The notes: generated by a model from the letters alone, not told the origin. Counted from the stretch's first letter, positions 22,252-37,963 are shown. The stretch is 64,000 bases of DNA from Bacteriovoracaceae bacterium (GCA_047634375.1 JBLIAG010000003.1:10262-74261); one strand, 5' to 3'. Program-made: numbers and translations.

Positions 22252-23589
22252 ATGTTAAAAAGAGCTGTGAAATCTATTTTAAGGAATATTAATATTAATT
22301 CCGTTTCAGGAAATGTCATCATCTTGAGTACCGTTACATTTATATGTTTGTTATTTTCAACTCCGATTATTTATAAAGTTCTTTGGAATACACTCTATGA
22401 AAAAGGATTGCAGGAAAATAAGCTACAGGCCGAGAGAATAGCAACTCTAGTTAATAGGGATTTAAGTAATGGTATTCCGGTAGATGTTGTGTTGGAAAAA
22501 TTTCAATTTATGCTTGAAAATACCACCCAGAATCACGAACATTTTGCTTGTGTTGTTAAAGGGAATGGAACTGTTATCGCTCATCCGAATCCGACTAATG
22601 TTGGTAAAGATGTAACGGGCTGGACTCTCGATGACGGAAAGGACATTGTGTCCTTTGATTATGCTGCGAAAAAAAATATTAAGTTTGGTGGAATTCAAAC
22701 GAGAACAAATGGCTCACAGGATTTAAGTTATCAATCTCCAATTGATACGCAAGATTGGGTCGTCGCCGTACATACAAACCTGAACTTACTTGAAAGTGAA
22801 TCTCTTCGAATTTTAAAAAATATAGGAATTGTTCTTATTCCCATTATGATTCTAATCATTTTGATCAGCTCCTTAATTGTTAAAAGAATTCATAAAAAAA
22901 ATAATGAAAAATTGGAAAATGCAAACGAGAAACTGAACAGCTTTGGTAAAATAGTTTGTCATGATGCCTCAGGCCCTTTAACAGGTATCATCGCTCTTGT
23001 TGATCTCATCATTGAGGACTATTCTGAAATATTACCTGAAGATGCTCAAAGCAGTTTGAGTACTGTCTCAAGTGCAACCTTTAGACTTCAAACAATGCTT
23101 CAGGACCTCTATTTATTCTGTAATTCACAGGTAGGGTTGAAGCCAGAGTTAGAAGATGTTGATCTTAATATACTAGCAAATGATATTATTTCTGATTTAC
23201 AAATTCAGATAACAGAAAGTAACGCAACAATCGTCTTGAAGGATTTGGGTACTGTGAGAAGTGGACGTAGCGAATTAAGACTTGCACTTCAAAATTTAAT
23301 TTCAAATGCGATTAAATATATAGAAAAAGGTAAAAAGCCTATTGTAGAAATTTACATGGATGGTGAAATGAATCTGTGTGTTAAGGATAACGGGATTGGT
23401 ATCAGCGAAGAGAATTATGAAAAAATCTTTGATCCTTTTAGTCGACTCGTTGGATCAGATTACGATGGGACAGGACTTGGGCTTTCAACATGTCAGAGGC
23501 TTATTAGATACACAGACGGAGATGTTTCTGTTTCTAGTGTAAAGGGAGAGGGCTCAACTTTTAAAATTTCCTTTCAATTGACCACGTAG
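22252..23589 (+). CDS. sensor histidine kinase with extracytoplasmic Cache-like domain
   Basis: 445 aa; TM - ~150-aa extracytoplasmic region - TM; H-box VCHDASGPLTGI; N box ISNAIKY; G boxes DNGIGI, GTGLGLSTC. Confidence 0.7.
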   Translation: MLKRAVKSILRNININSVSGNVIILSTVTFICLLFSTPIIYKVLWNTLYEKGLQENKLQAERIATLVNRDLSNGIPVDVVLEKFQFMLENTTQNHEHFACVVKGNGTVIAHPNPTNVGKDVTGWTLDDGKDIVSFDYAAKKNIKFGGIQTRTNGSQDLSYQSPIDTQDWVVAVHTNLNLLESESLRILKNIGIVLIPIMILIILISSLIVKRIHKKNNEKLENANEKLNSFGKIVCHDASGPLTGIIALVDLIIEDYSEILPEDAQSSLSTVSSATFRLQTMLQDLYLFCNSQVGLKPELEDVDLNILANDIISDLQIQITESNATIVLKDLGTVRSGRSELRLALQNLISNAIKYIEKGKKPIVEIYMDGEMNLCVKDNGIGISEENYEKIFDPFSRLVGSDYDGTGLGLSTCQRLIRYTDGDVSVSSVKGEGSTFKISFQLTT

Positions 23590-25257: not shown

Positions 25258-25343
25258 TGGTGGCTCGGGCGGGACTTGAACCCGCACAGTATTGCTACCG
25301 GTGGATTTTGAATCCACTGTGTCTACCATTCCACCACCGAGCC
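25258..25343 (-). tRNA. tRNA-Leu (anticodon CAA), class II with long variable arm
   Basis: acceptor GGCTCGG/CCGAGCC, anticodon stem GTGGA/TCCAC with loop TTCAAAA (CAA), variable arm CGGTAGCAATACTGTG, T-arm GCGGG-TTCAAGT-CCCGC, discriminator A, encoded CCA. Confidence 0.85.
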
Positions 25344-25658
25344 ATGGATGTATTGTAAGTGTATATTATTGTGTGAGTGAGAAGCTGTCAAAGAGAAACA
25401 GTACAGCTTTTGTGTGCGCTGCATCGGAAATTGTTAATCAACTTAAGAATTCATCCAATATTTTTCTCCTTTATGGGCAAAACTGGGCTCTTTGGATGTA
25501 ATTAAAGAGGGTGCTAAAATAGTTTTTAAACTAAACGAAAAGTAATAAATTATTGTCCTTAAATTAAGTAAATTTAAGGGACACCATACGTATCAGCATT
25601 TGATTCAATGCTAGAATATACTCTAAATAATTACTTTTATTAATAGGTTAGGACTAGC

Positions 25659-27938
25659 ATGAGCAATAGTTACGAAAAAGAATTTGAGAAAATTGAAAGA
25701 GAAGGTAGCTTACATGTAGTTCATTGGTTAATCATATTTCTTTCCTCAACAGTGACTATAGGGGCCTGGTATTTTACAAAGGCCCAAATCTCCGAAAAAA
25801 AATTAATTGAATTTCAAAAAAGCTCTAATCAGGTTATTGAACTGATTACTGATAGAATGCAAAAGTATGAAGATGCGCTTTGGGCCGGAGTCTCAACTAT
25901 TTATGTAAATGGTGGGGATATAGATAGTCCTAAATGGCGAACATTCTCAAGTACATTTGAAATCGATAAAAAATACCCAGGTATTAGTGGTATTGGTGTA
26001 ATCCATAATATTAAACCAAACAATATTCCTGCGTATTTAAAAAGAGAGAGAGTTCTTAGACCAGACTATCACATCCATCCCGCTCATGGACGTGATGATT
26101 TTTGGCCCATTACTCATATAGAGCCCGTTAAAGCTAATGCTAGGGCAGTTGGTCTCGATATGGCCCATGAACTTAATCGTTATACAGCAGCTCTTAAGGC
26201 CAGAGATACGGCATTGGCGCAAATTACAGGACCCATCGTTCTCGTTCAGGATTCAGGAAAAACACCTGGCTTTCTTTTTTTTACACCATTTTATAAAAAC
26301 AATCAAAAAGATAACTTAACTGAAAGGAGGGAGAATATAACTGGACTTGTTTATGCTCCCTTTGTTTTTAAAACTTTAATGAGAGGTGTTCTCTCCCAAG
26401 ATAAGAGATTAATTAGTATCAAAATATCAGATGGTACGGAAATACTATTTGATGAATTAAACTCCAAAAATACCGAATTTGATGATAGTCCATCTTATTC
26501 TCTACAAGAAACTATTCCTATGTATGGGAGAGATTGGAATTTTGAAGTTCAAACAACTAAAACATTCAAAAAGGTTATGCAAAATAATCAACCAAGACTA
26601 ATTCTTATATGTGGAATTATTTTAGACCTTTTATTGTTCTTTATTTTTCTTTTCTTAAGTCGAGCCAATAAAAAAATACTTCAATTTGGCCAAGAAGTTA
26701 GTCTTAGCTATAAGGATGAAACAAAAAAATTAGAAGATTTAAATAAAGATCTTAAAGCTGAAGTGAGTGCTAGAAAGTTTGCTGAATTACGAACACAAAA
26801 TACAAAAGAAGCAAATATTCAATTTTTAACAAAAATGGATTTTAAAATAAAGAAACCATTAAATGAAATATTAGAAGCAATAGAAAATCCAAATTTAGAA
26901 AAACTAGCACCAGAGGTAAGCTCATCTGTTAAACAGTCAGGACAGGATTTGATTGAAGTTATAAAGAATATTTTGGATGTTTCTAAATTAGAAGCAGGCC
27001 AAGTTGTTTTGAACCCAACACCTACCGATTTTTATAAACTGATAGATTCTTGCCTTGATAGTTATATTCCTAAATTTGAGAAAAAGGGAATTACATTTAA
27101 ACAAAGTATTGATGATTCTGTGCCACAGTATTTAAAATTAGATTCTAATAAACTTAAAGAAGTCCTCTTGTGCTTAGTAGATAATGCTTATCAATTTACT
27201 GATATTGGTTCAATTGAACTAACAGTTGAAGCGCAAGAAGATCCACAAACTAATCAGGTGGAGTTGCAGGTTAGCGTTATTGATACAGGTGTTGGGCTTG
27301 ATCATAAATCGTTGGAGTATATCTTTTCTCCTTTTGTTAATAGAAATGAGATTTTAGGCCAAAGTAGTATTGGCTCTGGTTTGAGCTTGTGTTTAGCAAA
27401 AAAAATAGTAGAGCTCTTTAAAGGGGAATTAAGAACCCGAAGTATTTTAGGCAAAGGAAGTAATTTTACTTTTTCAATTCAGTGTGAAAGATGTAATGAA
27501 CTTGAATTCTTTGAACAAAAAAGTAAATCGAAGAAAGAAATTGAGGTTCAGGATAAGTGGGATCGAGATGTGATATTAGTTGAGCCGGATCCTGATGAGC
27601 AAAGATTGACATCCTCAATTCTTCATCAGCTGGGTATCAACTCCATCGAAATTGTAAAAGACGGCGTAGAACTTTTAAAAAGATTCGAAGCTAAGAATTT
27701 CGCCGTTGCATTGATTAGAGATGATTTTGAGACAGCAGAAAAATTAAGAAAATTAAGTGGCTCTGTTATTTCAGGAGGCCCATATATCATTGGTATGTGC
27801 CAAAATATAAATAAAGAAGATAAGGACAAATTTAATTTAATTGGCGGAGACTATCTATTTGAAATGCCACTAGATTCTAAACAAGTAGAAGATGTTCTTA
27901 ATACTCTAAAGATTAATCTGAAGGATAAGGCTATCTAG
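25659..27938 (+). CDS. CHASE-domain sensor kinase-like protein lacking the H-box histidine; degenerate C-terminal receiver-like domain
   Basis: 759 aa; TM; extracytoplasmic CHASE-like region (GISGIGVIHNI … HELNRYTAALKARDT … ITGPIVLVQD); second TM; DHp-like helix FLTKMDFKIKKPLNEI where the conserved His is Phe; intact N/G1/G2 boxes (VDNAYQFT, DTGVGLD, GSGLSL). Confidence 0.65.
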   Translation: MSNSYEKEFEKIEREGSLHVVHWLIIFLSSTVTIGAWYFTKAQISEKKLIEFQKSSNQVIELITDRMQKYEDALWAGVSTIYVNGGDIDSPKWRTFSSTFEIDKKYPGISGIGVIHNIKPNNIPAYLKRERVLRPDYHIHPAHGRDDFWPITHIEPVKANARAVGLDMAHELNRYTAALKARDTALAQITGPIVLVQDSGKTPGFLFFTPFYKNNQKDNLTERRENITGLVYAPFVFKTLMRGVLSQDKRLISIKISDGTEILFDELNSKNTEFDDSPSYSLQETIPMYGRDWNFEVQTTKTFKKVMQNNQPRLILICGIILDLLLFFIFLFLSRANKKILQFGQEVSLSYKDETKKLEDLNKDLKAEVSARKFAELRTQNTKEANIQFLTKMDFKIKKPLNEILEAIENPNLEKLAPEVSSSVKQSGQDLIEVIKNILDVSKLEAGQVVLNPTPTDFYKLIDSCLDSYIPKFEKKGITFKQSIDDSVPQYLKLDSNKLKEVLLCLVDNAYQFTDIGSIELTVEAQEDPQTNQVELQVSVIDTGVGLDHKSLEYIFSPFVNRNEILGQSSIGSGLSLCLAKKIVELFKGELRTRSILGKGSNFTFSIQCERCNELEFFEQKSKSKKEIEVQDKWDRDVILVEPDPDEQRLTSSILHQLGINSIEIVKDGVELLKRFEAKNFAVALIRDDFETAEKLRKLSGSVISGGPYIIGMCQNINKEDKDKFNLIGGDYLFEMPLDSKQVEDVLNTLKINLKDKAI

Positions 27939-29459
27939 ATGGTTGAGAATAAAGTCTTAAGTAGGAAACTTTTAAGCCTACTAGATGTATCGTCTATTTT
28001 ATCAGTCATTGTTGGGATATTGGTAGTCTTTGGAAATATTTATAATGTTTTTCCACTTATTCAAATCTTTAATCTCTTTATTCCAGTGAGCCTCATTTCG
28101 GGGATTAGTTTTATTCTTCTAGGCTTCGGTGTCATGGTAAGAAATGACTATGTTAATATCTCTCGATTCCTAACTTTTTCGGTAATTGGAATTCAATTAA
28201 TAAATCTTCTCTTCTTTTGCTTTGGAAAGATTGATTTGAGTTTGCTTCTTATTGAAAATATGGGATTCGAAATTATTCCAGCAAAGCGAAATACCGGGAT
28301 TATGTTTCTCTTTTTAAATTTTTCAGCATTATCATTAATTGGTAAGATTGATACATTAAGAAAGAAGATAGTGTTTTTCGTGATAAGTTTTTTTAATGTT
28401 TATATAATCTTAAATGGTTGTTTTTTATATTTTTCTGATCCAATTCAGGGTGGCCTTTTAAAGCAATTATACCTCTCTCTTCATGCAATCCTTATTTTTA
28501 CTGCCTTTCAAGTTAGTTATGCCCTCGAAGTTGAAACATATAAGGAATTAAAAAATCTACGAACTTACGTTCTTGTTTTAGGGATTGTAACGGCTGTTGT
28601 GATAGGTGTACAGATTCGTCTTTCCCTCGAGAAAAATGTTAACAAGACTAAGGATACGATTTCTACTTTAATTGTTGAGCAGTTTAAAGCCAATTTAAAA
28701 TTAAGGGTTATACAATCTTTGAATTGGGTTATTGCACATGAAAAAAAAGATTTAATAAAGCAGTCTAGTATAAATACCGCTTCCGTCGAGTGCTTTGAAA
28801 AAAAATATGTTAGAGAGCATTTCTTGGGTGGAGAGCTTTGCTCTAAGGAAAATATAAAATATGAGTATGATCTTAAAGAATATAAGTTTCTAGAAATTCA
28901 AGATCTTGAGGTTGTTTCTATATATGAAGAGGACTCAGAGCTTAAAGCTTTATTGAATTTTGAAATTTTTGGTCAAACAGGTGTTAATAGAATGATTCTA
29001 AATCTAAGTGATATCCTTACAAGTCTTGAATCTCAGTGGACGGAATTTAAAATGGAGGTTGGTACTCAAAAGGGATATACTGAAGATCATAACTCTGTGT
29101 TTAACAAAATTATTTTGAATTCAGAATATTATCTACAACTTAAATCTGAAAACGATTTAACCGAAAATCTAAAGACTTCTTTACCCGAAGTTGTACTCTT
29201 TTTGATTCTACTCCTGAATCTTATAATTTATAGCTTTTTAAGTTATTTTCAAAAAATGCAGTCAGCTTTTGAATTGAATTTTAAAAGTATTCAAAACAGA
29301 AATAATGAATTGGCCAATAGAGAGCATGAAATATCTACAAAGGATCAGAGAGTTCAAAATTTACTCAATAAATATATCGATAGTGATGAGCCGATGGTGA
29401 AGGCAAAAATTATTACAGAACTAAAGAGTATTTCGAATAATTCAGGTGAGAAAAAATGA
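27939..29459 (+). CDS. polytopic membrane protein with C-terminal helical/coiled-coil region (sensor-like, no output domain)
   Basis: 506 aa; ~7 predicted TM helices in first 230 aa; ATG immediately after stop of upstream gene; 3' end overlaps next gene start (ATGA). Confidence 0.45.
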   Translation: MVENKVLSRKLLSLLDVSSILSVIVGILVVFGNIYNVFPLIQIFNLFIPVSLISGISFILLGFGVMVRNDYVNISRFLTFSVIGIQLINLLFFCFGKIDLSLLLIENMGFEIIPAKRNTGIMFLFLNFSALSLIGKIDTLRKKIVFFVISFFNVYIILNGCFLYFSDPIQGGLLKQLYLSLHAILIFTAFQVSYALEVETYKELKNLRTYVLVLGIVTAVVIGVQIRLSLEKNVNKTKDTISTLIVEQFKANLKLRVIQSLNWVIAHEKKDLIKQSSINTASVECFEKKYVREHFLGGELCSKENIKYEYDLKEYKFLEIQDLEVVSIYEEDSELKALLNFEIFGQTGVNRMILNLSDILTSLESQWTEFKMEVGTQKGYTEDHNSVFNKIILNSEYYLQLKSENDLTENLKTSLPEVVLFLILLLNLIIYSFLSYFQKMQSAFELNFKSIQNRNNELANREHEISTKDQRVQNLLNKYIDSDEPMVKAKIITELKSISNNSGEKK

Positions 29460-31000
29460 AATTAAAATTAATAAAAGTATTTACTCCAATTATCCTTCTG
29501 ATAATCGTTATCGTTTCTTTCGCAGTAATTGTTAAAAATGAGATTGATTCTCGTTTTGCTCCAAAGAGTGAGTCGGAGATAGCTAAGATCATATCACTAA
29601 ATAAGATGTGGTATGAAACATATTTCAAAACCTATGACGATTACACTTCACTAATAACTTCTAGAACTCAGTTAAGAAGGAGTTTAAATTTACTTCAAAC
29701 AGAAGGTAAGAAAGAGCACCTTGATAAGGTCGTTAAAATAACAAATGATGCCATAAGAGCGTTGCCACAAATTGAAGGGATAAGATTATACAACGACAAA
29801 AAAATCTTGCTGGTAAAGGTTGGGCCAATGAAAGATGTTCAACTTCGAAATTTTGATAAACAAACTCGTTTTTTAAAAGGAGCTGGTGATAATATCATCG
29901 GCTTTTCAAGATCTCCACTCAATCTAGATGGTAAGATTATTGGCTATATAGATGTTTCTTATAGGAATACGAAGTTAAAAGCATATCATGATGAAATTTC
30001 TAAAAATGACTATGTTTTTAAAACTGAAATTTTATTTGCAAATAATTTTGATGATCGCTTACTATTACTTACTTCGAATCCTGATCCACTCCCAGAATCT
30101 TTAAAGGTTACAGTCAAAGAGATTATTCTATCGAATAATCTTATAATAAAGGTTTTTGTAAACAATGACCGTAGTGGGTTAAATCTAAAGATCACTAATC
30201 TTTTTAACTATTTAGTTCTTCCGGTAATTATATTATTTGGAATCATTATTATTTATCTTTGGAGTATTTTACATAGGGGAAAGGATGAAATGGAACTTCT
30301 AGTTAAGGAGTCAGCAAAGGCTAATAATGAACTTTCTCAAATTGTTTATCGAACGTCTCACGATTTAAGGGCACCAATAACAAGTATTAGAGGATTAACA
30401 TATATATTGGAAGACGAGTTAGAATCTGGGAATTATAATGATGTTTTGGATGGAATACTCGATATACAATCAAGTGCAGATTCCCTCGCAAGGTTAATTG
30501 ATGATTTGATGATTACTATTAAATCTGATTTAAGCTCTGAAAAAACAGATCTTGTTGCTGTTCAGGAGATTTTTGATGACCTGAATAAGTTAATTAAAAA
30601 TAGTATTAATTTGTCCAATATTCAACTTATTACCAACATTGGAATTTCGGATATATTTACAAAAAAGAGAAAGCTCACTCAAATTCTTTATAATATAGTA
30701 ATGAACTCAATCAAATTCTCTGATCCTTCAAAGATCAGCTCATTCATAAGTATTTCCATTAATGAAGTTGAGGACGAAATATATATAAAGGTCGAGGATA
30801 ACGGTATTGGGATGACTGAAGAAAATGTTTCAAAAATATTTGATATGTTTAGTCGTTTTAGTGCGAAGTCGGCTTCTGGCAGTGGGCTTGGAATGTATAT
30901 TGTTCACAAAGATGTTGCCTCGTTAAAAGGTAGAATTTTTGTTACAAGTGAGCTAAACTTAAAGACAATTATAACAATTGTTTTACCAAGGAAAGAGTAA
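29456..31000 (+). CDS. sensor histidine kinase
   Basis: 514 aa; TM - periplasmic ~220 aa - TM; H-box RTSHDLRAPITSI; N box IVMNSIKFS; G boxes DNGIGM, GSGLGMYIV. Confidence 0.75.
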   Translation: MKLKLIKVFTPIILLIIVIVSFAVIVKNEIDSRFAPKSESEIAKIISLNKMWYETYFKTYDDYTSLITSRTQLRRSLNLLQTEGKKEHLDKVVKITNDAIRALPQIEGIRLYNDKKILLVKVGPMKDVQLRNFDKQTRFLKGAGDNIIGFSRSPLNLDGKIIGYIDVSYRNTKLKAYHDEISKNDYVFKTEILFANNFDDRLLLLTSNPDPLPESLKVTVKEIILSNNLIIKVFVNNDRSGLNLKITNLFNYLVLPVIILFGIIIIYLWSILHRGKDEMELLVKESAKANNELSQIVYRTSHDLRAPITSIRGLTYILEDELESGNYNDVLDGILDIQSSADSLARLIDDLMITIKSDLSSEKTDLVAVQEIFDDLNKLIKNSINLSNIQLITNIGISDIFTKKRKLTQILYNIVMNSIKFSDPSKISSFISISINEVEDEIYIKVEDNGIGMTEENVSKIFDMFSRFSAKSASGSGLGMYIVHKDVASLKGRIFVTSELNLKTIITIVLPRKE

Positions 31001-31435
31001 ATGGAATTCGAAATTCTAACAGTTGATGATCAAGCAATGGATAGGAAAATACTATCTAAAATGTTAACAAAGTTATTTCCTGATGTGACTATTCACGAAG
31101 CAGAGAATGGACAACTCGCAATTGATTTTCTAAAGCAATATGACCAAACTCTTATAAAAGAGAATGTAAGTGTGAAAATGCCTCTGGTTATTTTTCTTGA
31201 TATCAATATGCCAGTTATGAATGGGTTTGAATTTTTAGATGTACTTTGTTCAGAGGTTAAATCAGAACTTATTGTGCTGGATCCATTAGTTGTAAGTATG
31301 CTCTCATCGTCTAAGAATGAGGAAGATATAGCTAAGGCTAAAGCTTATGGAATTGTTAAAGATTTCGTAACAAAATATCCTAAAGATAAAACTCAGTTAA
31401 AGCTTACAATAGAAAATGCACTAAAAGGTAGCTAG
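31001..31435 (+). CDS. single-domain response regulator (REC)
   Basis: 144 aa; ILTVDDQAMDRK…, phospho-acceptor context IFLDINMPVMNGFEFL; ATG directly abuts the kinase stop. Confidence 0.7.
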   Translation: MEFEILTVDDQAMDRKILSKMLTKLFPDVTIHEAENGQLAIDFLKQYDQTLIKENVSVKMPLVIFLDINMPVMNGFEFLDVLCSEVKSELIVLDPLVVSMLSSSKNEEDIAKAKAYGIVKDFVTKYPKDKTQLKLTIENALKGS

Positions 31436-31495
31436 CTTAAGTTTACATCATAACTTATCTCGGTTTATAATAAATCAAATTCAAAAGGGGTAGTT

Positions 31496-32506
31496 ATGGG
31501 TATTTTTGATGCTTTTAAGAAGCAATTTATTGATGTTATTGAATGGAGTGAAGATGATTCCGGTCTTATTCAATACCGCTATCCTTTTATCGATAAAGAA
31601 ATTCAATACGGTGGACAATTAACTGTTAGTGAAGGGCAAGTGGCTTTATTTGTTAACGAAGGTAAAGTCGCCGATTTATTTGAGCCTGGTCTTCATAAAT
31701 TAATGACAAATAATTTGCCTATCTTAACAAGTTTAATGAACTGGGATAAAGCTTTTGAATCTCCATTCAAGTCAGACGTCTACTATTTTGTTACTAGAGA
31801 CCAGATAGATCAAAGATGGGGAACACCCAATCCAATTACAATTCGGGATAAAGAGTTTGGTCATATTAGATTAAGGGCCAATGGAACTTATACATTCAAA
31901 CTAGATGATGCTCGCCTATTTTTTGAAAAAGTATCGGGAACAAGAGGTGAGTATAGAATCGATGAATTAAATGATCAGCTAAGGTCAAATATACTTACTT
32001 CAATTAGTTCATTTTTTGGGAAAGCAGATATTCCATTTTTGGATATGGCGGCGAACCAAGTTGAGTTTTCTAAGGCCATTCAAGGAGCTGTTGAAGCTGA
32101 GTTTACAGCTTATGGATTAAAACTTCAGTCTTTCAATGTTCAAAACCTATCACTACCTGAAGAACTACAAGATTACCTAGATAAAAAATCTAAGATGAAT
32201 ATGATCGGTGACCTTAATAAATATGCTCAATTTGAAACGGCAGATAATATTGGAACAGCAGCTGCAAACGAAGGTGGCGGAGCAGGAATGGGAGTTGGTT
32301 TAGGTGCCGGTATCTCTATGGGGCAAACAATGATGAATAGCATGGGAAATGCTAGTGGACAAAATTCAAATCCTGTAAATGAAAGTGCCACTGAAGAAGA
32401 AATTCTTTCAACTATTGAAAAATTACACGGTTTGAAAGAGAAAGGTATTTTAACTGAAGAAGAATTTAATACAAAGAAATCGGAACTACTTAAAAAGTTA
32501 ATATAA
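31496..32506 (+). CDS. SPFH/Band-7 domain protein with Gly-rich linker and C-terminal SHOCT-like domain
   Basis: 336 aa; N-terminal ~270 aa match the SPFH-type (COG4260-like) pattern (DVIEWSED…GQLTVSEGQVALFVNEGK…YYFVTRDQ); linker GGGAGMGVGLGAGISMG; C-terminal EEEILSTIEKLHGLKEKGILTEEEFNTKKSELL is SHOCT-like. Confidence 0.6.
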   Translation: MGIFDAFKKQFIDVIEWSEDDSGLIQYRYPFIDKEIQYGGQLTVSEGQVALFVNEGKVADLFEPGLHKLMTNNLPILTSLMNWDKAFESPFKSDVYYFVTRDQIDQRWGTPNPITIRDKEFGHIRLRANGTYTFKLDDARLFFEKVSGTRGEYRIDELNDQLRSNILTSISSFFGKADIPFLDMAANQVEFSKAIQGAVEAEFTAYGLKLQSFNVQNLSLPEELQDYLDKKSKMNMIGDLNKYAQFETADNIGTAAANEGGGAGMGVGLGAGISMGQTMMNSMGNASGQNSNPVNESATEEEILSTIEKLHGLKEKGILTEEEFNTKKSELLKKLI

Positions 32507-33148
32507 ATGTTAAAAGCAGTATGCCCCAGTTGTGGGGGGGAGATAATTTTTCGTTCAAGTAACTCTGTATTGGCAGTTTGTACTTACTGTCGATCAAATA
32601 TTGTACGACATGATACGAATTTAGAACTAATTGGAAAGCAATCAGATCTTTTACCAGATATGAGTCCTTTGCAAATAGGTGTCTCTGGCAAATATGAGCA
32701 TATGAGGTTTCAAGTTGTCGGAAGACAAATTATGAAATGGAAAAATGGTCAATGGAATGAATGGTATATTATTTTTTCTGATGGTTCAGATGGATGGCTT
32801 GCTGAAGCCCAGGGGGAATTCAGTATTCTGCGAAAACCAAAAAAACAGCCTAAATTACCTAGTCCAAGTGAAATTTCAAAGCTTCATACAATTGAAATTG
32901 ATAAGTTGCACTTTAAATTAATTGATAAAAAGAAAGTTACATGTTTAGGAAGTGAAGGTGAACTTCCTTTCAAAGCAGTTGAAGGTGATAAATCTTTAAC
33001 TATGGATTTCTCAGATGGTAATGAAGGATTTGCAAGTGTTGAGGTTTTGTCTGATGGTGAAGTGCTCATTTATGTTGGAGCTTTTACTTCTTTAAAGAAA
33101 ATGTCTGTTTCTGGAATTCGTAGATTCGAAGGCTGGGAAAAGCTATGA
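32507..33148 (+). CDS. Zn-ribbon + DUF4178-like protein
   Basis: 213 aa; CPSCGGEI…CTYCRS zinc ribbon then beta-rich domain with W.EY/WL.E.G pattern; start directly follows SPFH stop codon. Confidence 0.5.
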   Translation: MLKAVCPSCGGEIIFRSSNSVLAVCTYCRSNIVRHDTNLELIGKQSDLLPDMSPLQIGVSGKYEHMRFQVVGRQIMKWKNGQWNEWYIIFSDGSDGWLAEAQGEFSILRKPKKQPKLPSPSEISKLHTIEIDKLHFKLIDKKKVTCLGSEGELPFKAVEGDKSLTMDFSDGNEGFASVEVLSDGEVLIYVGAFTSLKKMSVSGIRRFEGWEKL

Positions 33149-34491
33149 GAAAGAATACTGAATTCGTAAGACCAGTTCTTAAGAGTTTTAATTGCCCTAG
33201 CTGTGGAGCGACACTTGATTTAAAGGCAGTTGGTATTACAGTTTCGGTGGCGTGTCCCAGTTGTCATAATATTATTGATGTAAACAATCCAAGTCTGGCG
33301 ATTATTTCTAAAGCCAATAGTAAATATAAAGTAAAACCTTCAATACCTATAGGAAGTCGTGGAAAGCTCTCTGGAAATGTTTATGAAGTCATTGGTTTTA
33401 TGGAACGAAAAGAGGGGATTTACCCTTGGAAAGAATACCTTCTCTATAATCCTTACGTCGGCTTTAGATGGCTTTTTGAAATGAATGGTCATTGGAGTTT
33501 TATTAAAAGAATAAGAACTCTACCCGAAGTCATTTCATCTACAAATCTAAAATATAAAGGTAGGTCATTTAAGCTATATAATGAAGGAAATGCTAGTGTT
33601 TCTTACGTAGAAGGTGAGTTCTATTGGAGAGTAGAAGAAAAAGATACTTCAAGACTCTTTGATTATATTAGCCCACCATATATGCTTTCAAAAGAGAGGC
33701 AAAACACTGAGATCACCTGGACTTTGGGAACTTATATTACGCCTGAAAGGTTAGAAAAATCTTTTAAGTTAAAAGATAAGCTTATAAAGCCTCAGGGAGT
33801 GGGGGCCAACCAACCATCTCCAGTTAAAGAAAAATTTAAAAATAATATCACTTTAGCAGCCTTGGCCCTCTTGGCTTGTTTAATAATGCAAGTTATAAGG
33901 ACAGGTACGGCCAATGAAGAATCACTCTATAGAAGTGATTTGAATTTGACCCTGGATCCTGGGGAGCAGAGCCTAGTAGCTCCAAAATTTAAACGAATTC
34001 AAACCAGGCCATTTAAAAGAAGCTCGACTCCTGACAAAATTAGCTTAATTAAAACACGAGAATTTCAAATTAATGAAAGTGGAAAGAATATAAAGCTTAA
34101 GGGTTATGCAGCCGTTCGTAATACATGGATTTTTCTGGATACACTTTTAGTTAATGCTGAAACTGGAAAAGGTATTCCACTACCTCTTGAGATTTCCTAT
34201 TACTTTGGATCTGATTGGACTGAGGGCTCAAAAAATGAAAGTGTTATTGCCTATAATGTTCCAGCTGGTACCTATTATCTTAGTATTCAAGCTCAAATAC
34301 CACGTAACTTTAGTATACACACAACGGTCAGTGTTGAGTTAATAAGTGACACTGTAATCATGTCTAACTTTTATTGGCTTCTGATAGCACTTTTCTTTCC
34401 GCTATTATTTACTGGTTTAGGATCATATTCATTTGAGAAAAAAAGATGGGTCAATGGAAGTGAAAATCCATATGGTGATTGGGAGAGTTAA
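33145..34491 (+). CDS. Zn-ribbon + DUF4178-like protein with two TM segments and extra C-terminal extracytoplasmic domain (paralog of upstream gene)
   Basis: 448 aa; CPSCGAT…CPSCHN ribbon; region 33300-33700 aligns with the upstream gene (IGxxGK…WxEY…WLxExxG); TM helices ITLAALALLACLIMQVI and FYWLLIALFFPLLFTGLG; ATGA overlap with upstream. Confidence 0.5.
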   Translation: MRKNTEFVRPVLKSFNCPSCGATLDLKAVGITVSVACPSCHNIIDVNNPSLAIISKANSKYKVKPSIPIGSRGKLSGNVYEVIGFMERKEGIYPWKEYLLYNPYVGFRWLFEMNGHWSFIKRIRTLPEVISSTNLKYKGRSFKLYNEGNASVSYVEGEFYWRVEEKDTSRLFDYISPPYMLSKERQNTEITWTLGTYITPERLEKSFKLKDKLIKPQGVGANQPSPVKEKFKNNITLAALALLACLIMQVIRTGTANEESLYRSDLNLTLDPGEQSLVAPKFKRIQTRPFKRSSTPDKISLIKTREFQINESGKNIKLKGYAAVRNTWIFLDTLLVNAETGKGIPLPLEISYYFGSDWTEGSKNESVIAYNVPAGTYYLSIQAQIPRNFSIHTTVSVELISDTVIMSNFYWLLIALFFPLLFTGLGSYSFEKKRWVNGSENPYGDWES

Positions 34492-34641
34492 TGTTATATA
34501 AAATACTTTACGGAGCTTTTGTTTGTTATTTTGGGTATGTCTCTTTTACTGGAAGGTCCGTTTGGAACTCATCTGCAGAAAGAAAAATGACTCCAAAGGG
34601 AAAACGAAGTTATTATAATCATAAATAAATTGGAGGAATAA

Positions 34642-34860
34642 ATGGAAAATTTAATTAATATTCAAAGTATTGTATCAGCGGTGATCTTTTCAATATTAGG
34701 TTGTATTGCTTTTGGAATTGCATTTAAGGTAATAGATTTCTTGACACCTAATGATATGTGGAATGAAATTTTAGAAGAACATAATAATGCTCTTGCTATT
34801 GTCATTGGAAGTGTTGCAATAGGTATTGCTATAATTATTTCAGCTTCTATTAGAGGTTAA
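34642..34860 (+). CDS. DUF350-like small membrane protein (two TM helices)
   Basis: 72 aa; two hydrophobic helices separated by TPNDMWNEILEEHNNA; RBS GGAGGAATAAATG; stop abuts next gene start. Confidence 0.45.
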   Translation: MENLINIQSIVSAVIFSILGCIAFGIAFKVIDFLTPNDMWNEILEEHNNALAIVIGSVAIGIAIIISASIRG

Positions 34861-36354
34861 ATGACATTCGCATTATTGTTCTCTGTTGCAGTCATTGCAA
34901 CTTGTGGGCTTGTATATGAATTAATAGCTGGTGCATTGGCCAGTTATCTATTGGGTGATTCAATCACCCAGTTTTCTTTTATAATTGGTGTCTACCTTTT
35001 TGCGATGGGGGTAGGATCCTACTTATCCAAATTTATTACAAAAAGACTTTTGACCACTTTTATCAATATCGAGTTTATTGTTGGTATTGTTGGTGGTGTT
35101 TCAGCAACGGTTTTATTTTTATCTTTTGAATATATAAACTCATTTCGAATTTTACTTTATACCTTTGTCTTTGTGATCGGAACTTTGGTGGGGCTAGAAA
35201 TTCCTTTGCTTATGAGAATCTTACAAGACAAGTATGAATTTAAAGACTTAGTATCAAAAGTTTTCACAGTCGATTATATAGGAGCATTATTTGCGTCCAT
35301 TACGTTTCCTTTAATTCTGGCCCCTCAATTAGGTCTCATGCGAACAGCATTTCTATTTGGAATTTTCAATATTCTCGTGGGCCTTTGGACTCTTTATTTA
35401 TTTAGAGGAGAGTTAGTTAGTTTTAAATTCCAGAGGACGACTGGTATCTTTTTTTTAATCTTCCTTGTTTTTGGTTTTGTATATTCAAATCAACTACTTC
35501 AGTTCGCCGAATCTAATCACTATGATGATCCTATTATTTTTAATAAAAAATCTCCCTATCAAAAGTTAGTCCTAACTAAGGGGCACGATTTAAAATTATA
35601 TATTAATGGTAATCTTCAATTTAGCTCTATGGACGAGTACAGGTATCATGAAGCACTAGTTCACCCCGGAATGGCCAATAATGATTATATCAAAAATGTC
35701 CTTGTCTTAGGTGGTGGTGATGGTTTCGCTGTAAGAGAAGTTTTAAAGTATCCTCAGGTCGAAAAAGTAACCCTTGTTGATCTTGATCCGTTAATGACAA
35801 AACTCTTTAAAGAAAATAAAGATCTTGTGTCCCTTAATAGTAATGCTTTAAATTCACATAAGGTAACAGTCATTAACGATGATGCTTTTGTTTGGCTAAG
35901 AGATAAGAATAAGAAAAAATATGATTATATTATTATCGATTTCCCTGATCCTTCTAACTTTTCACTAGGAAAACTTTATTCTAAATCCTTCTTTAAAATA
36001 GTTAAATCAAGTCTTAGTGACGAAGGCCTAATGGTCATTCAGAGTACTTCTCCATATTTCGCTAGAAAATCCTATTGGTGTGTTGGAAATACAATTGACC
36101 ATGTAGGGCTAAAGACTATTCCTTACCACGCCTATGTACCATCTTTTGGAGAATGGGGTTATTTTATGGCGAGTAAAAAGCCTTATAGATTTCCTGAGAA
36201 ATTTGTCGAAGGTCTAAAGTTCATAAATGGCGATACACTTAAGCAAATGTTCCAATTTCCAAAGGACATGAGTAAGGTTAAAACAGAAGTTAATCGATTA
36301 AATAATCAAATTCTTGTTCATTACTTTGAAGAAGAATGGTCGCAGTTTAATTAA
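34861..36354 (+). CDS. polyamine aminopropyltransferase (spermidine-synthase-like) fused to N-terminal ~7-TM membrane domain
   Basis: 497 aa; first ~200 aa polytopic; then PABS fold motifs VLVLGGGDGFAVREVLKY, VTLVDLDP, YDYIIIDFPDPSN. Confidence 0.75.
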   Translation: MTFALLFSVAVIATCGLVYELIAGALASYLLGDSITQFSFIIGVYLFAMGVGSYLSKFITKRLLTTFINIEFIVGIVGGVSATVLFLSFEYINSFRILLYTFVFVIGTLVGLEIPLLMRILQDKYEFKDLVSKVFTVDYIGALFASITFPLILAPQLGLMRTAFLFGIFNILVGLWTLYLFRGELVSFKFQRTTGIFFLIFLVFGFVYSNQLLQFAESNHYDDPIIFNKKSPYQKLVLTKGHDLKLYINGNLQFSSMDEYRYHEALVHPGMANNDYIKNVLVLGGGDGFAVREVLKYPQVEKVTLVDLDPLMTKLFKENKDLVSLNSNALNSHKVTVINDDAFVWLRDKNKKKYDYIIIDFPDPSNFSLGKLYSKSFFKIVKSSLSDEGLMVIQSTSPYFARKSYWCVGNTIDHVGLKTIPYHAYVPSFGEWGYFMASKKPYRFPEKFVEGLKFINGDTLKQMFQFPKDMSKVKTEVNRLNNQILVHYFEEEWSQFN

Positions 36355-36355
36355 T

Positions 36356-37963
36356 ATGAAAATTAACCGAAGAAAATTACTCCTAGCAGCTGGCTCACTC
36401 ACCATCATTTCCCTTATTGGTTTTAGAAAAATAAAAGGCTTTTTAAAAGAAAGAATTATTCCAGGATCTATTTCTGGAGCAAATTTTTCGAGAGGACACC
36501 TCATTCGTGATCCACAGTTTGAAGGCGAAATAATTCATGAAGAGATTCCTGTTGTCATTATTGGTGGTGGAGTATCGGGACTGTCCGCTGGATATCAATT
36601 AGCAAAATCAGGCTTTACAGATTTCAAAATTCTAGATTTAGAAAATCGGGTTGGAGGTAACTCTTCAAGCGCAAGTAATAGCGCTGGAAGCTATCCTTTA
36701 GGAGCGCATTATGTTCCTCTTGCATCAAGTGAGGCCACAGAGTTAAAAGAATTCTTTCGAGATTCTGGAGTAATAGTAAATGAAGATCTAGATAATCCCG
36801 AATATAATGATTTCTTCGTTTGTAGTGCTCCACAAGATCGGCTTTTTCTCCATGGGCGTTGGCAAGAAAATCTTGAGCCAAAACAGGGAGTTCCAATCGA
36901 TCAGCAAAATGAATTTAGACGTTTTTTTTCTATTATGGATAAATTAAAAATATCCCGCGGAAAAGATGGACTAAGGGCCTTTGCAATTCCGATGAGTAGA
37001 AGTTCCAAAGATTCTAAATTCTTGAAGTACGATCAAATGACTATGAAAGATTTTTTGATAAAAAATGAATTTCTAAGTGAATATCTACATTGGTATGTAA
37101 ACTATTGCTGTCTGGACGATTACGGCGCTCCTATGGAATTAGTTTCTGCATGGGCCGGTATACATTATTTTGCTTCTCGAAATGGTAAAGGAAAAAACTT
37201 AACTTCTTCTGATGTTATTACTTGGCCACAAGGAAATGGATGGTTTGTTGATAAACTGTCTTCTGGAATTAAAAATCAAATTCAATTAAATAGTCTTGTT
37301 TATGAAATTAATGAAGAAGATGGTATTTATCTAATTAAAAATTTTAACTTTGAAAGCAAAAAAAGGCACTTCATTAGGTGCAGAAAAGTTATATATGCTT
37401 CACCCTTATTTACAGCAAAAAGAACAGTACAAATAAAAGAACTTCAGGAAAAAATCCAAAAAGTTAACATCGAGTATTCACCATGGATGACAGCAAATAT
37501 TTTATTCAAAGGATCTTTGAATGATTCGAATATTCCAGTTTGCTGGGATAATGTAAACTATCATGGGAAAAGTTTGGGGTATATTTATGGTAATCACCAA
37601 GATGTAAATAGAGTCAATGAGAAGATTAATCTAACACAATATTGGCCCCTTATAAAAAGTACTCCTCAAAAAGCTAGAATTAGAGCACTCACAAAAACCC
37701 ATCAAGAATGGTGTGAAGATGTCATTAATGAGCTAGAGCTCACCCATACGGATGTACGAGAAAGAATTGAAAGGATAGATGTTTCTTTATGGGGACACGC
37801 AATGGCCATCCCCAAAGTTGGATTTTTAAATCGCATAAATCAGCTGGATGAGAATAAGAGTTTTATCTTTGCACATACAGATCATGCAGGCGTTTCTATT
37901 TTTGAGGAAGCTTTTTACCAAGGTTTGAGTGCTGCGAACAAGATAATAAAAGGTCAACCTTGA
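36356..37963 (+). CDS. Tat-signal FAD-dependent oxidoreductase, amine-oxidase-like
   Basis: N-terminus MKINRRKLLLAAGSLTIISLIGF (twin-arginine motif); dinucleotide-binding VVIIGGGVSGLSAGYQLA…LDLENRVGGNS; ATG 1 nt after previous stop (ORF track start 36314 is probably upstream read-through of the frame). Confidence 0.6.
   Translation: MKINRRKLLLAAGSLTIISLIGFRKIKGFLKERIIPGSISGANFSRGHLIRDPQFEGEIIHEEIPVVIIGGGVSGLSAGYQLAKSGFTDFKILDLENRVGGNSSSASNSAGSYPLGAHYVPLASSEATELKEFFRDSGVIVNEDLDNPEYNDFFVCSAPQDRLFLHGRWQENLEPKQGVPIDQQNEFRRFFSIMDKLKISRGKDGLRAFAIPMSRSSKDSKFLKYDQMTMKDFLIKNEFLSEYLHWYVNYCCLDDYGAPMELVSAWAGIHYFASRNGKGKNLTSSDVITWPQGNGWFVDKLSSGIKNQIQLNSLVYEINEEDGIYLIKNFNFESKKRHFIRCRKVIYASPLFTAKRTVQIKELQEKIQKVNIEYSPWMTANILFKGSLNDSNIPVCWDNVNYHGKSLGYIYGNHQDVNRVNEKINLTQYWPLIKSTPQKARIRALTKTHQEWCEDVINELELTHTDVRERIERIDVSLWGHAMAIPKVGFLNRINQLDENKSFIFAHTDHAGVSIFEEAFYQGLSAANKIIKGQP

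What the first reader, a model, noticed from the sequence alone, without database searches (positions are those of the whole stretch)
25659..31435. Four-gene signalling operon headed by a CHASE-domain kinase-like protein that lacks the phospho-acceptor histidine
The genes at 25659-27938, 27939-29459, 29456-31000 and 31001-31435 abut or overlap. The junctions are TAG then ATG at 27936-27941, an ATGA overlap at 29456-29459, and TAA then ATG at 30998-31003. The first protein has a CHASE-like extracytoplasmic domain and an intact ATP-binding module (N, G1 and G2 boxes). Its DHp-like helix reads FLTKMDFKIKKPLNEI, where the canonical family pattern is F-L-A-x-M-S-H-E-L-R-T-P-L-N. The His is replaced by Phe and no alternative His lies nearby. 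Its C-terminal receiver-like domain is also degenerate. It is followed by a 7-TM protein with no output domain, then a canonical histidine kinase (H-box RTSHDLRAPI) and a stand-alone REC protein. This architecture suggests a pseudokinase/co-sensor that modulates the downstream bona fide kinase, or trans-phosphorylation within a multi-kinase complex.
Basis: seen in the sequence. Interest (0 to 1): 0.65.

Follow-up and report, generated by a model that had tools for sequence, protein, structure and literature searches.

The report
CHASE-sensor histidine pseudokinase in kinase operon
A membrane sensor protein of an uncultured predatory-type bacterium (Bacteriovoracaceae) keeps its outside sensing domain but has lost both phosphorylation sites of its kinase half, so it is a "dead" kinase that probably tunes the working kinase encoded two genes downstream; this kind of regulator is already known from other bacteria.

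Summary
Four abutting or overlapping + strand genes (25659-31435) encode a CHASE-domain hybrid-kinase look-alike (P1), an orphan multi-pass membrane protein (P2), a canonical HisKA/HATPase_c kinase (P3) and a single-domain receiver (P4).

In P1 the phospho-acceptor His is Phe395. The whole S-H-E-x-R-T H-box is replaced. The C-terminal domain keeps a receiver fold but has lost the acceptor Asp through a 6-residue deletion.

It is not a sequencing error. A second strain (97.5% identical) carries the same Phe, and the only other relative (44% identical, sister in 200/200 bootstraps) has Asp there and Gly at the receiver Asp.

The gene is under purifying selection (dN/dS 0.14). The CHASE domain keeps 72 of 76 family-conserved positions, while DHp and receiver have diverged strongly. 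The ATP-binding module is only partly intact.

The nearest canonical relatives are stand-alone genes, so the operon setting goes with the His-less lineage.

Best reading: a phospho-inert co-sensor that modulates the P3-P4 pathway by protein contacts, as RocA, RetS, DivL and PsmA do. The partner and mechanism are inferred, not shown. It is a new member of a known kind, of moderate to low interest.

The parts
25344..25658 (+). 5' leader and promoter region of the operon. It is bounded upstream by a minus-strand tRNA-Leu(CAA) gene at 25258-25343.
   Evidence: tRNA found by ARAGORN and Rfam. No Rfam cis-regulatory element in the leader. No strong sigma-70-like site on the + strand here.
25659..27938 (+). 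P1: 759-aa CHASE-domain pseudo-hybrid histidine kinase. Layout: TM1 aa 18-36, CHASE, TM2 aa 315-333, DHp-like hairpin, HATPase_c, pseudo-receiver.
   Evidence: AF2 mean pLDDT 83.9. Foldseek matches to HK853, GacS, RetS and DivL. dN/dS 0.14 against strain L002.
25917..26441 (+). CHASE extracytoplasmic sensor domain of P1 (aa 87-261), well conserved.
   Evidence: Pfam PF03924 E=1.8e-45. It keeps 72 of 76 positions that are >=90% conserved in canonical relatives. 63% identical to P0002, like canonical pairs.
26823..26864 (+). Degenerate H-box FLTKMDFKIKKPLN (aa 389-402). Phe395 (26841-26843) replaces the phospho-acceptor His. Also Ser394Asp, Glu396Lys, Arg398Lys and Thr399Lys.
   Evidence: Identical in strain L002, with 4 synonymous and 0 non-synonymous changes in the DHp.
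27009..27494 (+). CA (HATPase_c) domain of P1. The Mg-binding Asn509, G1 (DTGVG), F box and G2 glycines are retained. N505C, K512Q and G576S are changed.
   Evidence: Pfam E=1.4e-16. Conserved-column audit 16/24 kept. AF2 pLDDT about 88-95.
27570..27932 (+). Pseudo-receiver domain of P1 (aa 638-758). The (beta-alpha)5 fold is predicted. The acidic pocket Asp is Pro643, the acceptor Asp-x-x-Met-Pro segment is deleted, and the conserved Lys is Met736.
   Evidence: No Response_reg hit. Alignment. Only 3 of 15 conserved positions kept. AF2 secondary structure E638-641 ... H740-758 at pLDDT 77-92.
27939..29459 (+). P2: 506-aa orphan membrane protein. About 7 TM helices in aa 1-230, a loop of about 190 aa, TM 418-436, and a helical tail 437-506. 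Its start abuts the P1 stop.
   Evidence: No Pfam or NCBIfam hit. The only relative in 5.8e9 and 1.84e9 sequence libraries is the near-strain copy. dN/dS 0.25. Hydropathy. AF2 uninformative, pLDDT 36.
29456..31000 (+). P3: 514-aa canonical sensor histidine kinase. TM 8-26, extracytoplasmic domain of about 225 aa of unknown type, TM 253-271, HisKA with His302 (30359-30361), HATPase_c.
   Evidence: Pfam HisKA 3.2e-07 and HATPase_c 6.4e-22. Motifs located. Hydropathy.
31001..31435 (+). P4: 144-aa single-domain response regulator with Asp9, Asp10, acceptor Asp67 and Lys125, and no output domain.
   Evidence: Pfam Response_reg 2.1e-11. Residues read directly.

Best explanation
P1 is a histidine pseudokinase. 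It is a former CHASE-domain hybrid sensor kinase that has lost both phosphorylation sites (H-box His and receiver Asp) and the catalytic H-box neighbours. It has kept its extracytoplasmic CHASE sensor, its two TM helices and the folded DHp/CA/receiver scaffold.

It most likely works as a phospho-inert co-sensor. Ligand binding to the CHASE domain would change the conformation of the dead transmitter. That change would be passed by protein-protein contact within a membrane complex, probably including the co-translated orphan membrane protein P2, to the working kinase P3. This would shift P3's phosphorylation of the single-domain receiver P4.

Shown here: loss of the catalytic residues, retention of the sensor, purifying selection, shared ancestry of the loss, and operon coupling.
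Inferred: the identity of the partner, the direction of regulation, and any ATP binding.
For: - His replaced by Phe395 in alignments to solved kinases. 117 of 120 homologues have His.
- S394, H395, E396, R398 and T399 are all replaced, both in P1 and in its sister P0002. K396 and K398 are shared derived states.
- The receiver acceptor Asp is deleted in P1 and is Gly in P0002.
- P1 and P0002 are sisters in 200/200 NJ bootstraps, also on the CHASE+TM half alone.
- The second strain L002 has an identical DHp with only synonymous changes. Whole-gene dN/dS is 0.14.
- The CHASE domain is conserved like canonical proteins (72/76 positions, 63% identity). DHp is 23% and receiver 21% identical, against 62% and 39% in canonical pairs.
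- All domains fold confidently and match HK853, GacS, RetS and DivL.
- The four genes abut or overlap, with ribosome-binding sites, and the order is conserved in L002.
- In L001 the sister pseudokinase is also followed, with an 8-bp overlap, by a multi-TM gene.
- The nearest canonical relatives P0003, P0004 and P0009 are stand-alone genes.
- Precedents for pseudokinases controlling true kinases: RocA-CovS (PMC7028121) and DivL-CckA (PMC4211667).
Against: - No direct evidence of any P1-P3, P1-P2 or P1-P4 contact.
- P1's DHp is unlike P3's.
- The lineage is tiny: one species with two strains, plus one 4-kb contig. Operon conservation beyond the species can be seen only for the gene immediately downstream, and homology of that gene to P2 could not be shown (hhalign probability 3.7%).
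- In strain L002 the P3 orthologue carries a 1-nt deletion just after the H-box. If real, P1 would be maintained there without an intact P3.
- The dN/dS figures rest on few substitutions.
Confidence: 0.5

Rival explanations
1. DivL-like reversed flow. P1 is not upstream of P3 but is the target of the pathway. Phosphorylated P4, which has no output domain, docks on the dead DHp/CA of P1. P1 then relays that state, combined with its CHASE input, to another effector or back onto P3.
For: - P4 is a stand-alone receiver that needs a protein target.
- P1 keeps a folded DHp-CA unit structurally similar to DivL 4q20.
- The H-box has become Lys-rich (K396, K398, K399), with K396 and K398 shared with P0002. 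That could favour binding of an acidic or phosphorylated partner (inference).
- DivL precedent: PMC4211667.
Against: - DivL has a conserved Tyr and PAS domains, while P1 has Phe (Asp in the sister) and a CHASE domain.
- DHp helix 1, which normally carries the receiver-specificity residues, is the least conserved part between P1 and P0002 (23% identity).
- No binding data.
Confidence: 0.2
2. RetS-like inhibitor. P1's DHp forms heterodimers with a canonical hybrid kinase of the same FLAxMSHEIRTPLN subfamily encoded elsewhere, and blocks its autophosphorylation. Candidates are the GAF hybrid kinase at 16598-18256 or a canonical CHASE paralogue. The operon neighbours would then be a separate pathway.
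For: - RetS kinase-region structures are among the best sequence and fold matches, at 28-30% identity. A RetS-GacS DHp co-complex exists (7n0e).
- P1's DHp aligns much better with the GAF hybrid kinase DHp (score 101, 23/69 identical) than with P3's (score 25).
Against: - The tight translational coupling of P1-P2-P3-P4 argues for a joint function.
- P1's DHp has diverged strongly from all canonical relatives, which would erode a homodimer-like interface.
- No candidate partner could be tested.
Confidence: 0.12
3. The CA domain of P1 is still an active ATP-binding module. It phosphorylates a His in trans, either on P3 or on another protein, within a multi-kinase complex.
For: Despite only 33% identity in the CA domain, P1 and P0002 both keep the Mg-binding Asn509, the G1 DxGxG motif, the F box and the G2 glycines. 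The CA fold is confidently predicted.
Against: - The 100%-conserved first N-box Asn is lost in both proteins (Cys, Ala). The N-box Lys is Gln in P1. G576 is Ser in both.
- P3 has its own complete CA domain.
- The dissimilar DHps make a mixed dimer unlikely.
Confidence: 0.07
4. P1 is a decaying or non-functional gene remnant, or the Phe is a sequencing or assembly artefact.
For: Loss of all catalytic residues. Very small lineage. The neighbouring kinase is frameshifted in one strain.
Against: - Full-length intact ORFs of 759, 759 and 758 aa in three independent assemblies.
- dN/dS of 0.14, with 0 non-synonymous changes in the DHp.
- The CHASE domain is conserved as in functional relatives.
- All domains are confidently folded.
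- The His-less state has persisted to 44% sequence identity.
- The exact protein was seen on 10 contigs.
Confidence: 0.04

Closest known systems
RetS (Pseudomonas aeruginosa), a hybrid-kinase-like regulator of GacS
   Same: Membrane protein with an extracytoplasmic sensor domain fused to a DHp-CA-receiver transmitter, whose phosphorylation chemistry is not what it signals with. It acts on a bona fide kinase. It is among the best sequence and fold matches to P1's kinase core (28-30% identity).
   Different: RetS retains the His and has a 7TMR-DISMED2 sensor and two receivers. It binds GacS through similar DHps (7n0e). P1 has a CHASE sensor, has lost the His, and its DHp is unlike that of the operon kinase P3. 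The statements on RetS mechanism are from established knowledge and were not tested here.
DivL (Caulobacter crescentus) histidine pseudokinase
   Same: Class I kinase fold with a non-phosphorylatable residue at the His site. It functions without kinase activity and couples a single-domain receiver (DivK~P) to a true kinase (CckA) (PMC4211667). It is a structural match to P1 (4q20).
   Different: DivL has a conserved Tyr, cytoplasmic PAS domains and no receiver domain. P1 has Phe (Asp in its sister), a periplasmic CHASE domain and a C-terminal pseudo-receiver.
PsmA (Streptomyces) hybrid-kinase-like pseudokinase
   Same: Hybrid kinase architecture lacking the H-box His. The replacing residue varies between orthologues (E, D, Q, V, Y), as here (F, D). 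It also lacks the E/DxxT/N phosphatase motif (PMC12963549).
   Different: PsmA is cytoplasmic, binds DivIVA at the hyphal tip and keeps a receiver Asp (which is dispensable). P1 is a transmembrane CHASE receptor, has lost the receiver Asp, and sits in an operon with a kinase and a receiver.
RocA (group A Streptococcus), accessory pseudokinase of CovS
   Same: Membrane-embedded kinase look-alike that does not need phosphorylation and enhances a bona fide sensor kinase, probably through membrane-spanning regions (PMC7028121). This is the closest analogue of the mechanism proposed for P1 (with P2) acting on P3.
   Different: RocA has six TM helices, no extracytoplasmic ligand-binding domain, a degenerate CA domain and a dispensable but present His. 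It is not encoded next to covS.
Canonical CHASE-domain hybrid histidine kinases (for example P0003, P0004, P0009 and P0024 of Bacteriovorax sp.)
   Same: Same overall length and architecture, 36-41% identity, and CHASE domain conserved at 72/76 family positions.
   Different: They all carry MSHEIRTP, HisKA and Response_reg hits and the acceptor Asp. The three examined are stand-alone genes without signalling neighbours.

Membership tests
Class I (HisKA-type) sensor histidine kinase | Phospho-acceptor His in the H-box of DHp helix 1 | tested here: not met
   Phe395 aligns with the His of GacS and RetS. 117/120 homologues have His. No other His in the DHp.
Class I (HisKA-type) sensor histidine kinase | HisKA profile match above the Pfam gathering score | tested here: not met
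   13.9 bits against a cut-off of 26.9. The match starts at profile position 14, after the H-box.
Class I (HisKA-type) sensor histidine kinase | E/D at H+1 and T/N at H+4 (catalytic base; phosphatase motif) | tested here: not met
   Lys396 and Lys399 in P1. Lys and Val in P0002.
Class I (HisKA-type) sensor histidine kinase | HATPase_c domain with N, G1, F and G2 boxes | tested here: inconclusive
   HATPase_c E=1.4e-16. N509, DxGxG, F box and G2 glycines are kept, but N505C, K512Q and G576S are changed. ATP binding cannot be decided from sequence.
Class I (HisKA-type) sensor histidine kinase | DHp helical hairpin plus alpha/beta CA fold | tested here: met
   AF2 model with pLDDT 83.9. Foldseek E about 1e-17 to HK853, GacS, RetS and YycG.
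Hybrid histidine kinase (C-terminal receiver) | Receiver domain with acidic pocket, acceptor Asp, and conserved Thr/Ser and Lys | tested here: not met
   No Response_reg hit. D643P, acceptor segment deleted, K736M, and 3/15 conserved positions kept.
Hybrid histidine kinase (C-terminal receiver) | (beta-alpha)5 receiver fold | tested here: met
   AF2 predicts five strands alternating with five helices over aa 638-758, pLDDT 77-92.
CHASE-domain receptors | CHASE domain between two TM helices | tested here: met
   PF03924 E=1.8e-45 over aa 87-261. TM 18-36 and 315-333. 72/76 conserved positions kept.
Histidine pseudokinases (functional class: DivL, RocA, PsmA) | Kinase-like fold that lacks the catalytic residues yet is maintained by selection | tested here: met
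   dN/dS 0.14. The state is shared across 44% identity.
Histidine pseudokinases (functional class: DivL, RocA, PsmA) | No autokinase activity in vitro | not testable with these tools
   Needs a [gamma-32P]ATP assay on the purified cytoplasmic fragment.
Histidine pseudokinases (functional class: DivL, RocA, PsmA) | Physical interaction with, and modulation of, a bona fide kinase or response regulator | not testable with these tools
   Only operon linkage is available. No multimer prediction or interaction assay was possible.
RetS-type DHp heterodimerising inhibitor (with P3 as the target) | DHp closely similar to that of the target kinase | tested here: not met
   P1 DHp against P3 DHp scores 25 (10/29 identical), against 101 for the GAF hybrid kinase DHp.
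DivL family | Conserved Tyr at the His position and an N-terminal PAS array | tested here: not met
   Phe in P1 and Asp in P0002. No PAS hit; a CHASE domain instead.

The most novel reading that the evidence does not exclude
P1, the orphan 8-TM protein P2 and the kinase P3 form a three-subunit membrane receptor. The dead CHASE receptor still binds ATP and acts as a ligand-gated allosteric or trans-acting subunit of P3. In parallel, its Lys-rich former H-box reads the phosphorylation state of P4. The result would be a self-contained feedback module built around a pseudokinase, of a type not described for CHASE receptors.
Probability: 0.1. Interest if true: 0.55.

Novelty: new member of a known kind. 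Interest (0 to 1): 0.3.

Why it matters
CHASE domains are the ligand-binding modules of plant cytokinin receptors and of many bacterial kinases and cyclases. I found no paper describing a bacterial CHASE receptor whose transmitter is phospho-dead (the library searched is limited).

The case gives a clean natural example of how a hybrid kinase can be converted into an accessory sensor. The sensor domain stays frozen, while the DHp and receiver are freed to diverge and the gene becomes operon-linked to a working kinase.

It adds to the growing list of histidine pseudokinases (DivL, RocA, PsmA, RetS-like). It also offers a compact four-gene system in which pseudokinase-to-kinase communication could be reconstituted.

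It does not open a new category. It occurs in a very small, uncultured lineage, which limits its reach.

Tried and rejected
- **More His-less relatives.** I tried a profile search with the P1/P0002/L002 alignment, a genome-contig scan and a metagenome scan. These returned only canonical CHASE kinases. L003 is a high-GC actinobacterial kinase with ASHDLKTPL. The source genome is not in the representative genome collection.
- **Identity of P2.** Pfam and NCBIfam gave nothing, even at E<=10. The word-indexed search and the exhaustive phmmer search of 1.84e9 representatives found only the near-strain copy. The AF2 model is unusable (pLDDT 36), so no fold search was run on it.
- **Homology of P2 to the multi-TM gene after P0002.** BLASTP gave E=0.013 at equivalent N-terminal positions, but hhalign probability is 3.7%. 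This is treated as unproven.
- **Sensor domain of P3 and loop domain of P2.** No family hit.
- **Regulatory RNA in the leader.** None found; only the tRNA.
- **Promoter and terminator scans.** Counts are no higher than in shuffled sequence, so they do not define the operon ends.
- **Sequencing error or pseudogene.** Rejected.
- **Genomic island at the tRNA.** Considered, but the operon lies on the 5' side of the minus-strand tRNA, not at its 3' end. Not pursued.
- **First phylogeny attempt.** It timed out and was redone.

Full report
**1. Observation**

The junctions are TAG|ATG, an ATGA overlap and TAA|ATG. Each start codon is preceded by a purine-rich Shine-Dalgarno-like run.

The cluster is bounded upstream by a minus-strand tRNA-Leu(CAA) gene at 25258-25343. 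Downstream there is a 60-nt gap holding a good sigma-70-like match (TTTACA-18-TATAAT, 31442-31471), which lies ahead of an SPFH/Band-7 gene. The promoter and terminator scans as a whole are no richer than shuffled sequence, so the operon ends are not proven.

The source is an uncultured Bacteriovoracaceae bacterium, according to the name NCBI gives the identical protein. G+C content is about 33%.

**2. P1 domain content and the missing His**

Pfam finds CHASE (E=1.8e-45, aa 87-261) and HATPase_c (E=1.4e-16). HisKA reaches only 13.9 bits against a cut-off of 26.9, and its match starts at profile position 14, after the H-box. No receiver is detected. NCBIfam gives only sub-threshold matches to hybrid kinases such as TorS, LuxQ and BarA.

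phmmer against solved structures aligns FLTKMDFKIKKPLN with FLANMSHEIRTPLN of GacS (7z8n) and FLAKISHEIRTPMN of RetS (6dk8). Phe395 (codon 26841-26843) therefore sits at the phospho-acceptor position.

Among the 120 best homologues, 117 have His in that column. The exceptions are P1 itself (F), P0002 (D) and an unrelated Myxococcales CHASE protein P0084 (Q, with the rest of the H-box intact).

P1's cytoplasmic part contains only two His residues, H549 and H656, neither in the DHp.

**3. Extent of the degeneration**

I audited every position that is at least 90% conserved in 63 canonical relatives.

| Domain | Conserved positions | Kept in P1 | Kept in P0002 |
|---|---|---|---|
| CHASE | 76 | 72 | 73 |
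| DHp | 18 | 11 | 6 |
| CA | 24 | 16 | 20 |
| Receiver | 15 | 3 | 4 |

- **DHp.** The whole S-H-E-x-R-T motif is replaced in both proteins. Lys396 and Lys398 are shared derived states.
- **CA.** The Mg-binding Asn509, G1 (D542, G544, G546), the F box (F556, F559) and G572/G574 are kept. The otherwise invariant first N-box Asn is Cys505 (Ala in P0002), Lys512 is Gln in P1, and Gly576 is Ser in both.
- **Receiver.** The acidic-pocket Asp is Pro643. The segment carrying the acceptor Asp (D-x-x-M-P) is deleted in P1 and reads G-x-x-T-S in P0002. The conserved Lys is Met736 in P1.

An AF2 model built on 65 sequences is confident (mean pLDDT 83.9). It shows a CHASE fold, a long DHp hairpin, an alpha/beta CA domain and a complete (beta-alpha)5 C-terminal domain. 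Foldseek matches HK853, GacS, RetS, YycG and DivL. P1 is therefore a folded kinase look-alike with a pseudo-receiver.

**4. Not an error and not decay**

The identical protein occurs on 10 contigs. A syntenic 13-kb metagenome contig (L002, 94-97% nucleotide identity) encodes a 97.5%-identical P1 with the same H-box.

The Nei-Gojobori dN/dS between the two strains is 0.14 for P1. By domain it is 0.085 for CHASE, 4 synonymous and 0 non-synonymous changes for the DHp, and 0.26 for the pseudo-receiver. It is 0.25 for P2, 0.2-0.36 for P3 and 0.32 for P4. The counts are small but uniformly indicate purifying selection.

The only other close relative, P0002 (44% identity, 758 aa, on a 4-kb contig), is P1's sister in 200/200 NJ bootstraps, including when only the conserved CHASE+TM half is used. 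A profile search found no further member, and the score falls from 1406 bits (P0002) to 748 bits (P0003, canonical). The His-less, Asp-less state is thus old (persisting down to 44% identity) and inherited.

Domain-wise identity between the two pseudokinases, compared with canonical pairs:

| Domain | P1 vs P0002 | Canonical pairs |
|---|---|---|
| CHASE | 63% | about 65% |
| DHp | 23% | 62% |
| CA | 33% | 39-47% |
| Receiver | 21% | about 39% |

The sensor has been kept under its ancestral constraint, while the transmitter has been freed and remodelled.

**5. The neighbours**

- **P2** has no family hit. It has no relative other than the near-strain copy in either the 5.8-billion-sequence word search or an exhaustive phmmer search of 1.84 billion representatives. 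Hydropathy suggests about seven TM helices in aa 1-230, a loop of about 190 aa, an eighth TM helix at 418-436 and a 70-aa helical tail. AF2 is uninformative (pLDDT 36). Its dN/dS of 0.25 argues that it is a real gene.
- **P3** is a canonical kinase: TM, an extracytoplasmic domain of about 225 aa of unknown type, TM, HisKA with His302, and HATPase_c with all boxes.
- **P4** is a single-domain receiver with Asp9, Asp10, Asp67 and Lys125.

In L002 the gene order is identical. In L001 the sister pseudokinase is preceded by an ECF sigma factor and a small ORF. It is followed, with an 8-bp overlap, by a multi-TM protein that runs off the contig. Its homology to P2 could not be established.

The three closest canonical CHASE hybrid kinases that I examined (P0003, P0004, P0009) are stand-alone genes with unrelated neighbours. 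Embedding in a signalling operon therefore goes with the His-less lineage.

**6. Mechanism**

*Shown.* P1 cannot be phosphorylated at the canonical His or Asp, and it lacks the catalytic Glu and the phosphatase Thr. Its CHASE sensor and overall fold are maintained by selection. It is translationally coupled to an orphan membrane protein, a working kinase and a stand-alone receiver.

*Inferred, most likely (about 0.5).* P1 is a phospho-inert co-sensor that passes CHASE-domain ligand occupancy to P3 through contacts in a membrane complex, possibly with P2 as a subunit. This is how RocA acts on CovS (PMC7028121).

*Rivals.*
- DivL-like reversed flow, in which P4~P docks on P1's dead DHp/CA (PMC4211667). 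The shared Lys-rich former H-box is compatible with this but does not demonstrate it.
- RetS-like DHp heterodimerisation. Sequence similarity points away from P3 (score 25) and toward same-subfamily hybrid kinases such as the GAF hybrid kinase at 16598-18256 (score 101).
- Trans-phosphorylation by a still-active CA domain. The N505, K512 and G576 substitutions weaken this.
- Decay or artefact, which is essentially excluded.

One caveat is that the P3 orthologue in L002 has a 1-nt deletion in a short (TA)n run just after the H-box. This is either an assembly error or a very recent lesion, because the downstream part still shows dN/dS of about 0.2.

**7. Comparison with what is known, and novelty**

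Histidine pseudokinases are an established functional class that has arisen repeatedly: DivL (Tyr), RocA, PsmA (a hybrid-kinase look-alike whose His-site residue varies between orthologues, as here; PMC12963549) and the RetS-type regulators.

P1 fails the defining tests for a functional HisKA kinase and for a hybrid-kinase receiver. It passes those for a CHASE receptor and for a selectively maintained kinase-like scaffold. It is not homologous in any special way to DivL, RocA or PsmA, so it is an independent new instance.

A full-text search for "CHASE domain" together with "pseudokinase" returned only plant papers in which the two terms are unrelated. A bacterial CHASE pseudokinase therefore appears undescribed, within the limits of that library.

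**8. Verdict**

- The pseudokinase interpretation is supported.
- The proposed link to the downstream kinase is plausible but untested.
- The finding is a new member of a known kind, in a very small uncultured lineage.
- Interest 0.3.

Noticed in passing
L002:4168-5711 (orthologue of window 29456-31000): In the near-identical strain the canonical kinase P3 is split into 321-aa and 197-aa ORFs. The cause is a 1-nt deletion in a short (TA)n run about 15 codons after the H-box. It may be an assembly error or a recent inactivation. The downstream half still shows dN/dS of about 0.2.
   Followed up: partly
window 27939-29459, against L002:2687-4171: The orphan gene P2 diverges very unevenly between the two strains. 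The first 105 residues are 100% identical. They are followed by a patch with many changes and a 12-aa indel (aa 133-144). dS also varies about 60-fold between neighbouring genes (0.01 for SPFH, 0.34 for P2, 0.59 for the spermidine-synthase-like gene), which suggests recombination between strains.
   Followed up: partly
window 31496-37963: Directly downstream lies a conserved cluster: SPFH/Band-7 with a SHOCT tail, two DUF4178 zinc-ribbon proteins, a small DUF350 gene (called in L002), a membrane-anchored spermidine/spermine-synthase-like protein and an FAD amine oxidase. It is preceded by a strong sigma-70-like site at 31442-31471. It looks like a membrane-stress/polyamine module. Whether the signalling operon controls it is unknown.
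   Followed up: partly
window 25258-25343 (- strand): tRNA-Leu(CAA) gene immediately upstream of the operon, with a TTGACA-17-TAATAT promoter-like site on the minus strand at 25391-25363.
   Followed up: yes
P0084 (Myxococcales CHASE protein, 624 aa; not in the window): An independent loss of the acceptor His in another CHASE kinase: FLATMGQELRTPVN (His to Gln), with the rest of the H-box intact. The cluster has 5 member sequences on 3 contigs. This suggests that His loss recurs among CHASE kinases.
   Followed up: partly
window 30359-30373 (P3 aa 302-306): P3's H-box is H-D-L-R-A-P, with Ala at H+4 where HisKA kinases usually have the Thr/Asn needed for phosphatase activity. P3 may be a poor phosphatase, which would leave room for an accessory regulator.
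   Followed up: no
window 16598-18256 and 22252-23589: Two further sensor kinases lie within 10 kb upstream. One is a canonical GAF hybrid kinase (HisKA 3.8e-21, HATPase_c, Response_reg) whose DHp is the most similar in the window to P1's. The other is a Cache-like kinase with H-box CHDASGPL. The region is rich in signalling genes.
   Followed up: partly
L001:138-984: The sister pseudokinase P0002 is preceded by an ECF-type sigma factor gene and an overlapping 98-aa ORF (a possible anti-sigma factor). This upstream context differs from that in the window.
   Followed up: no
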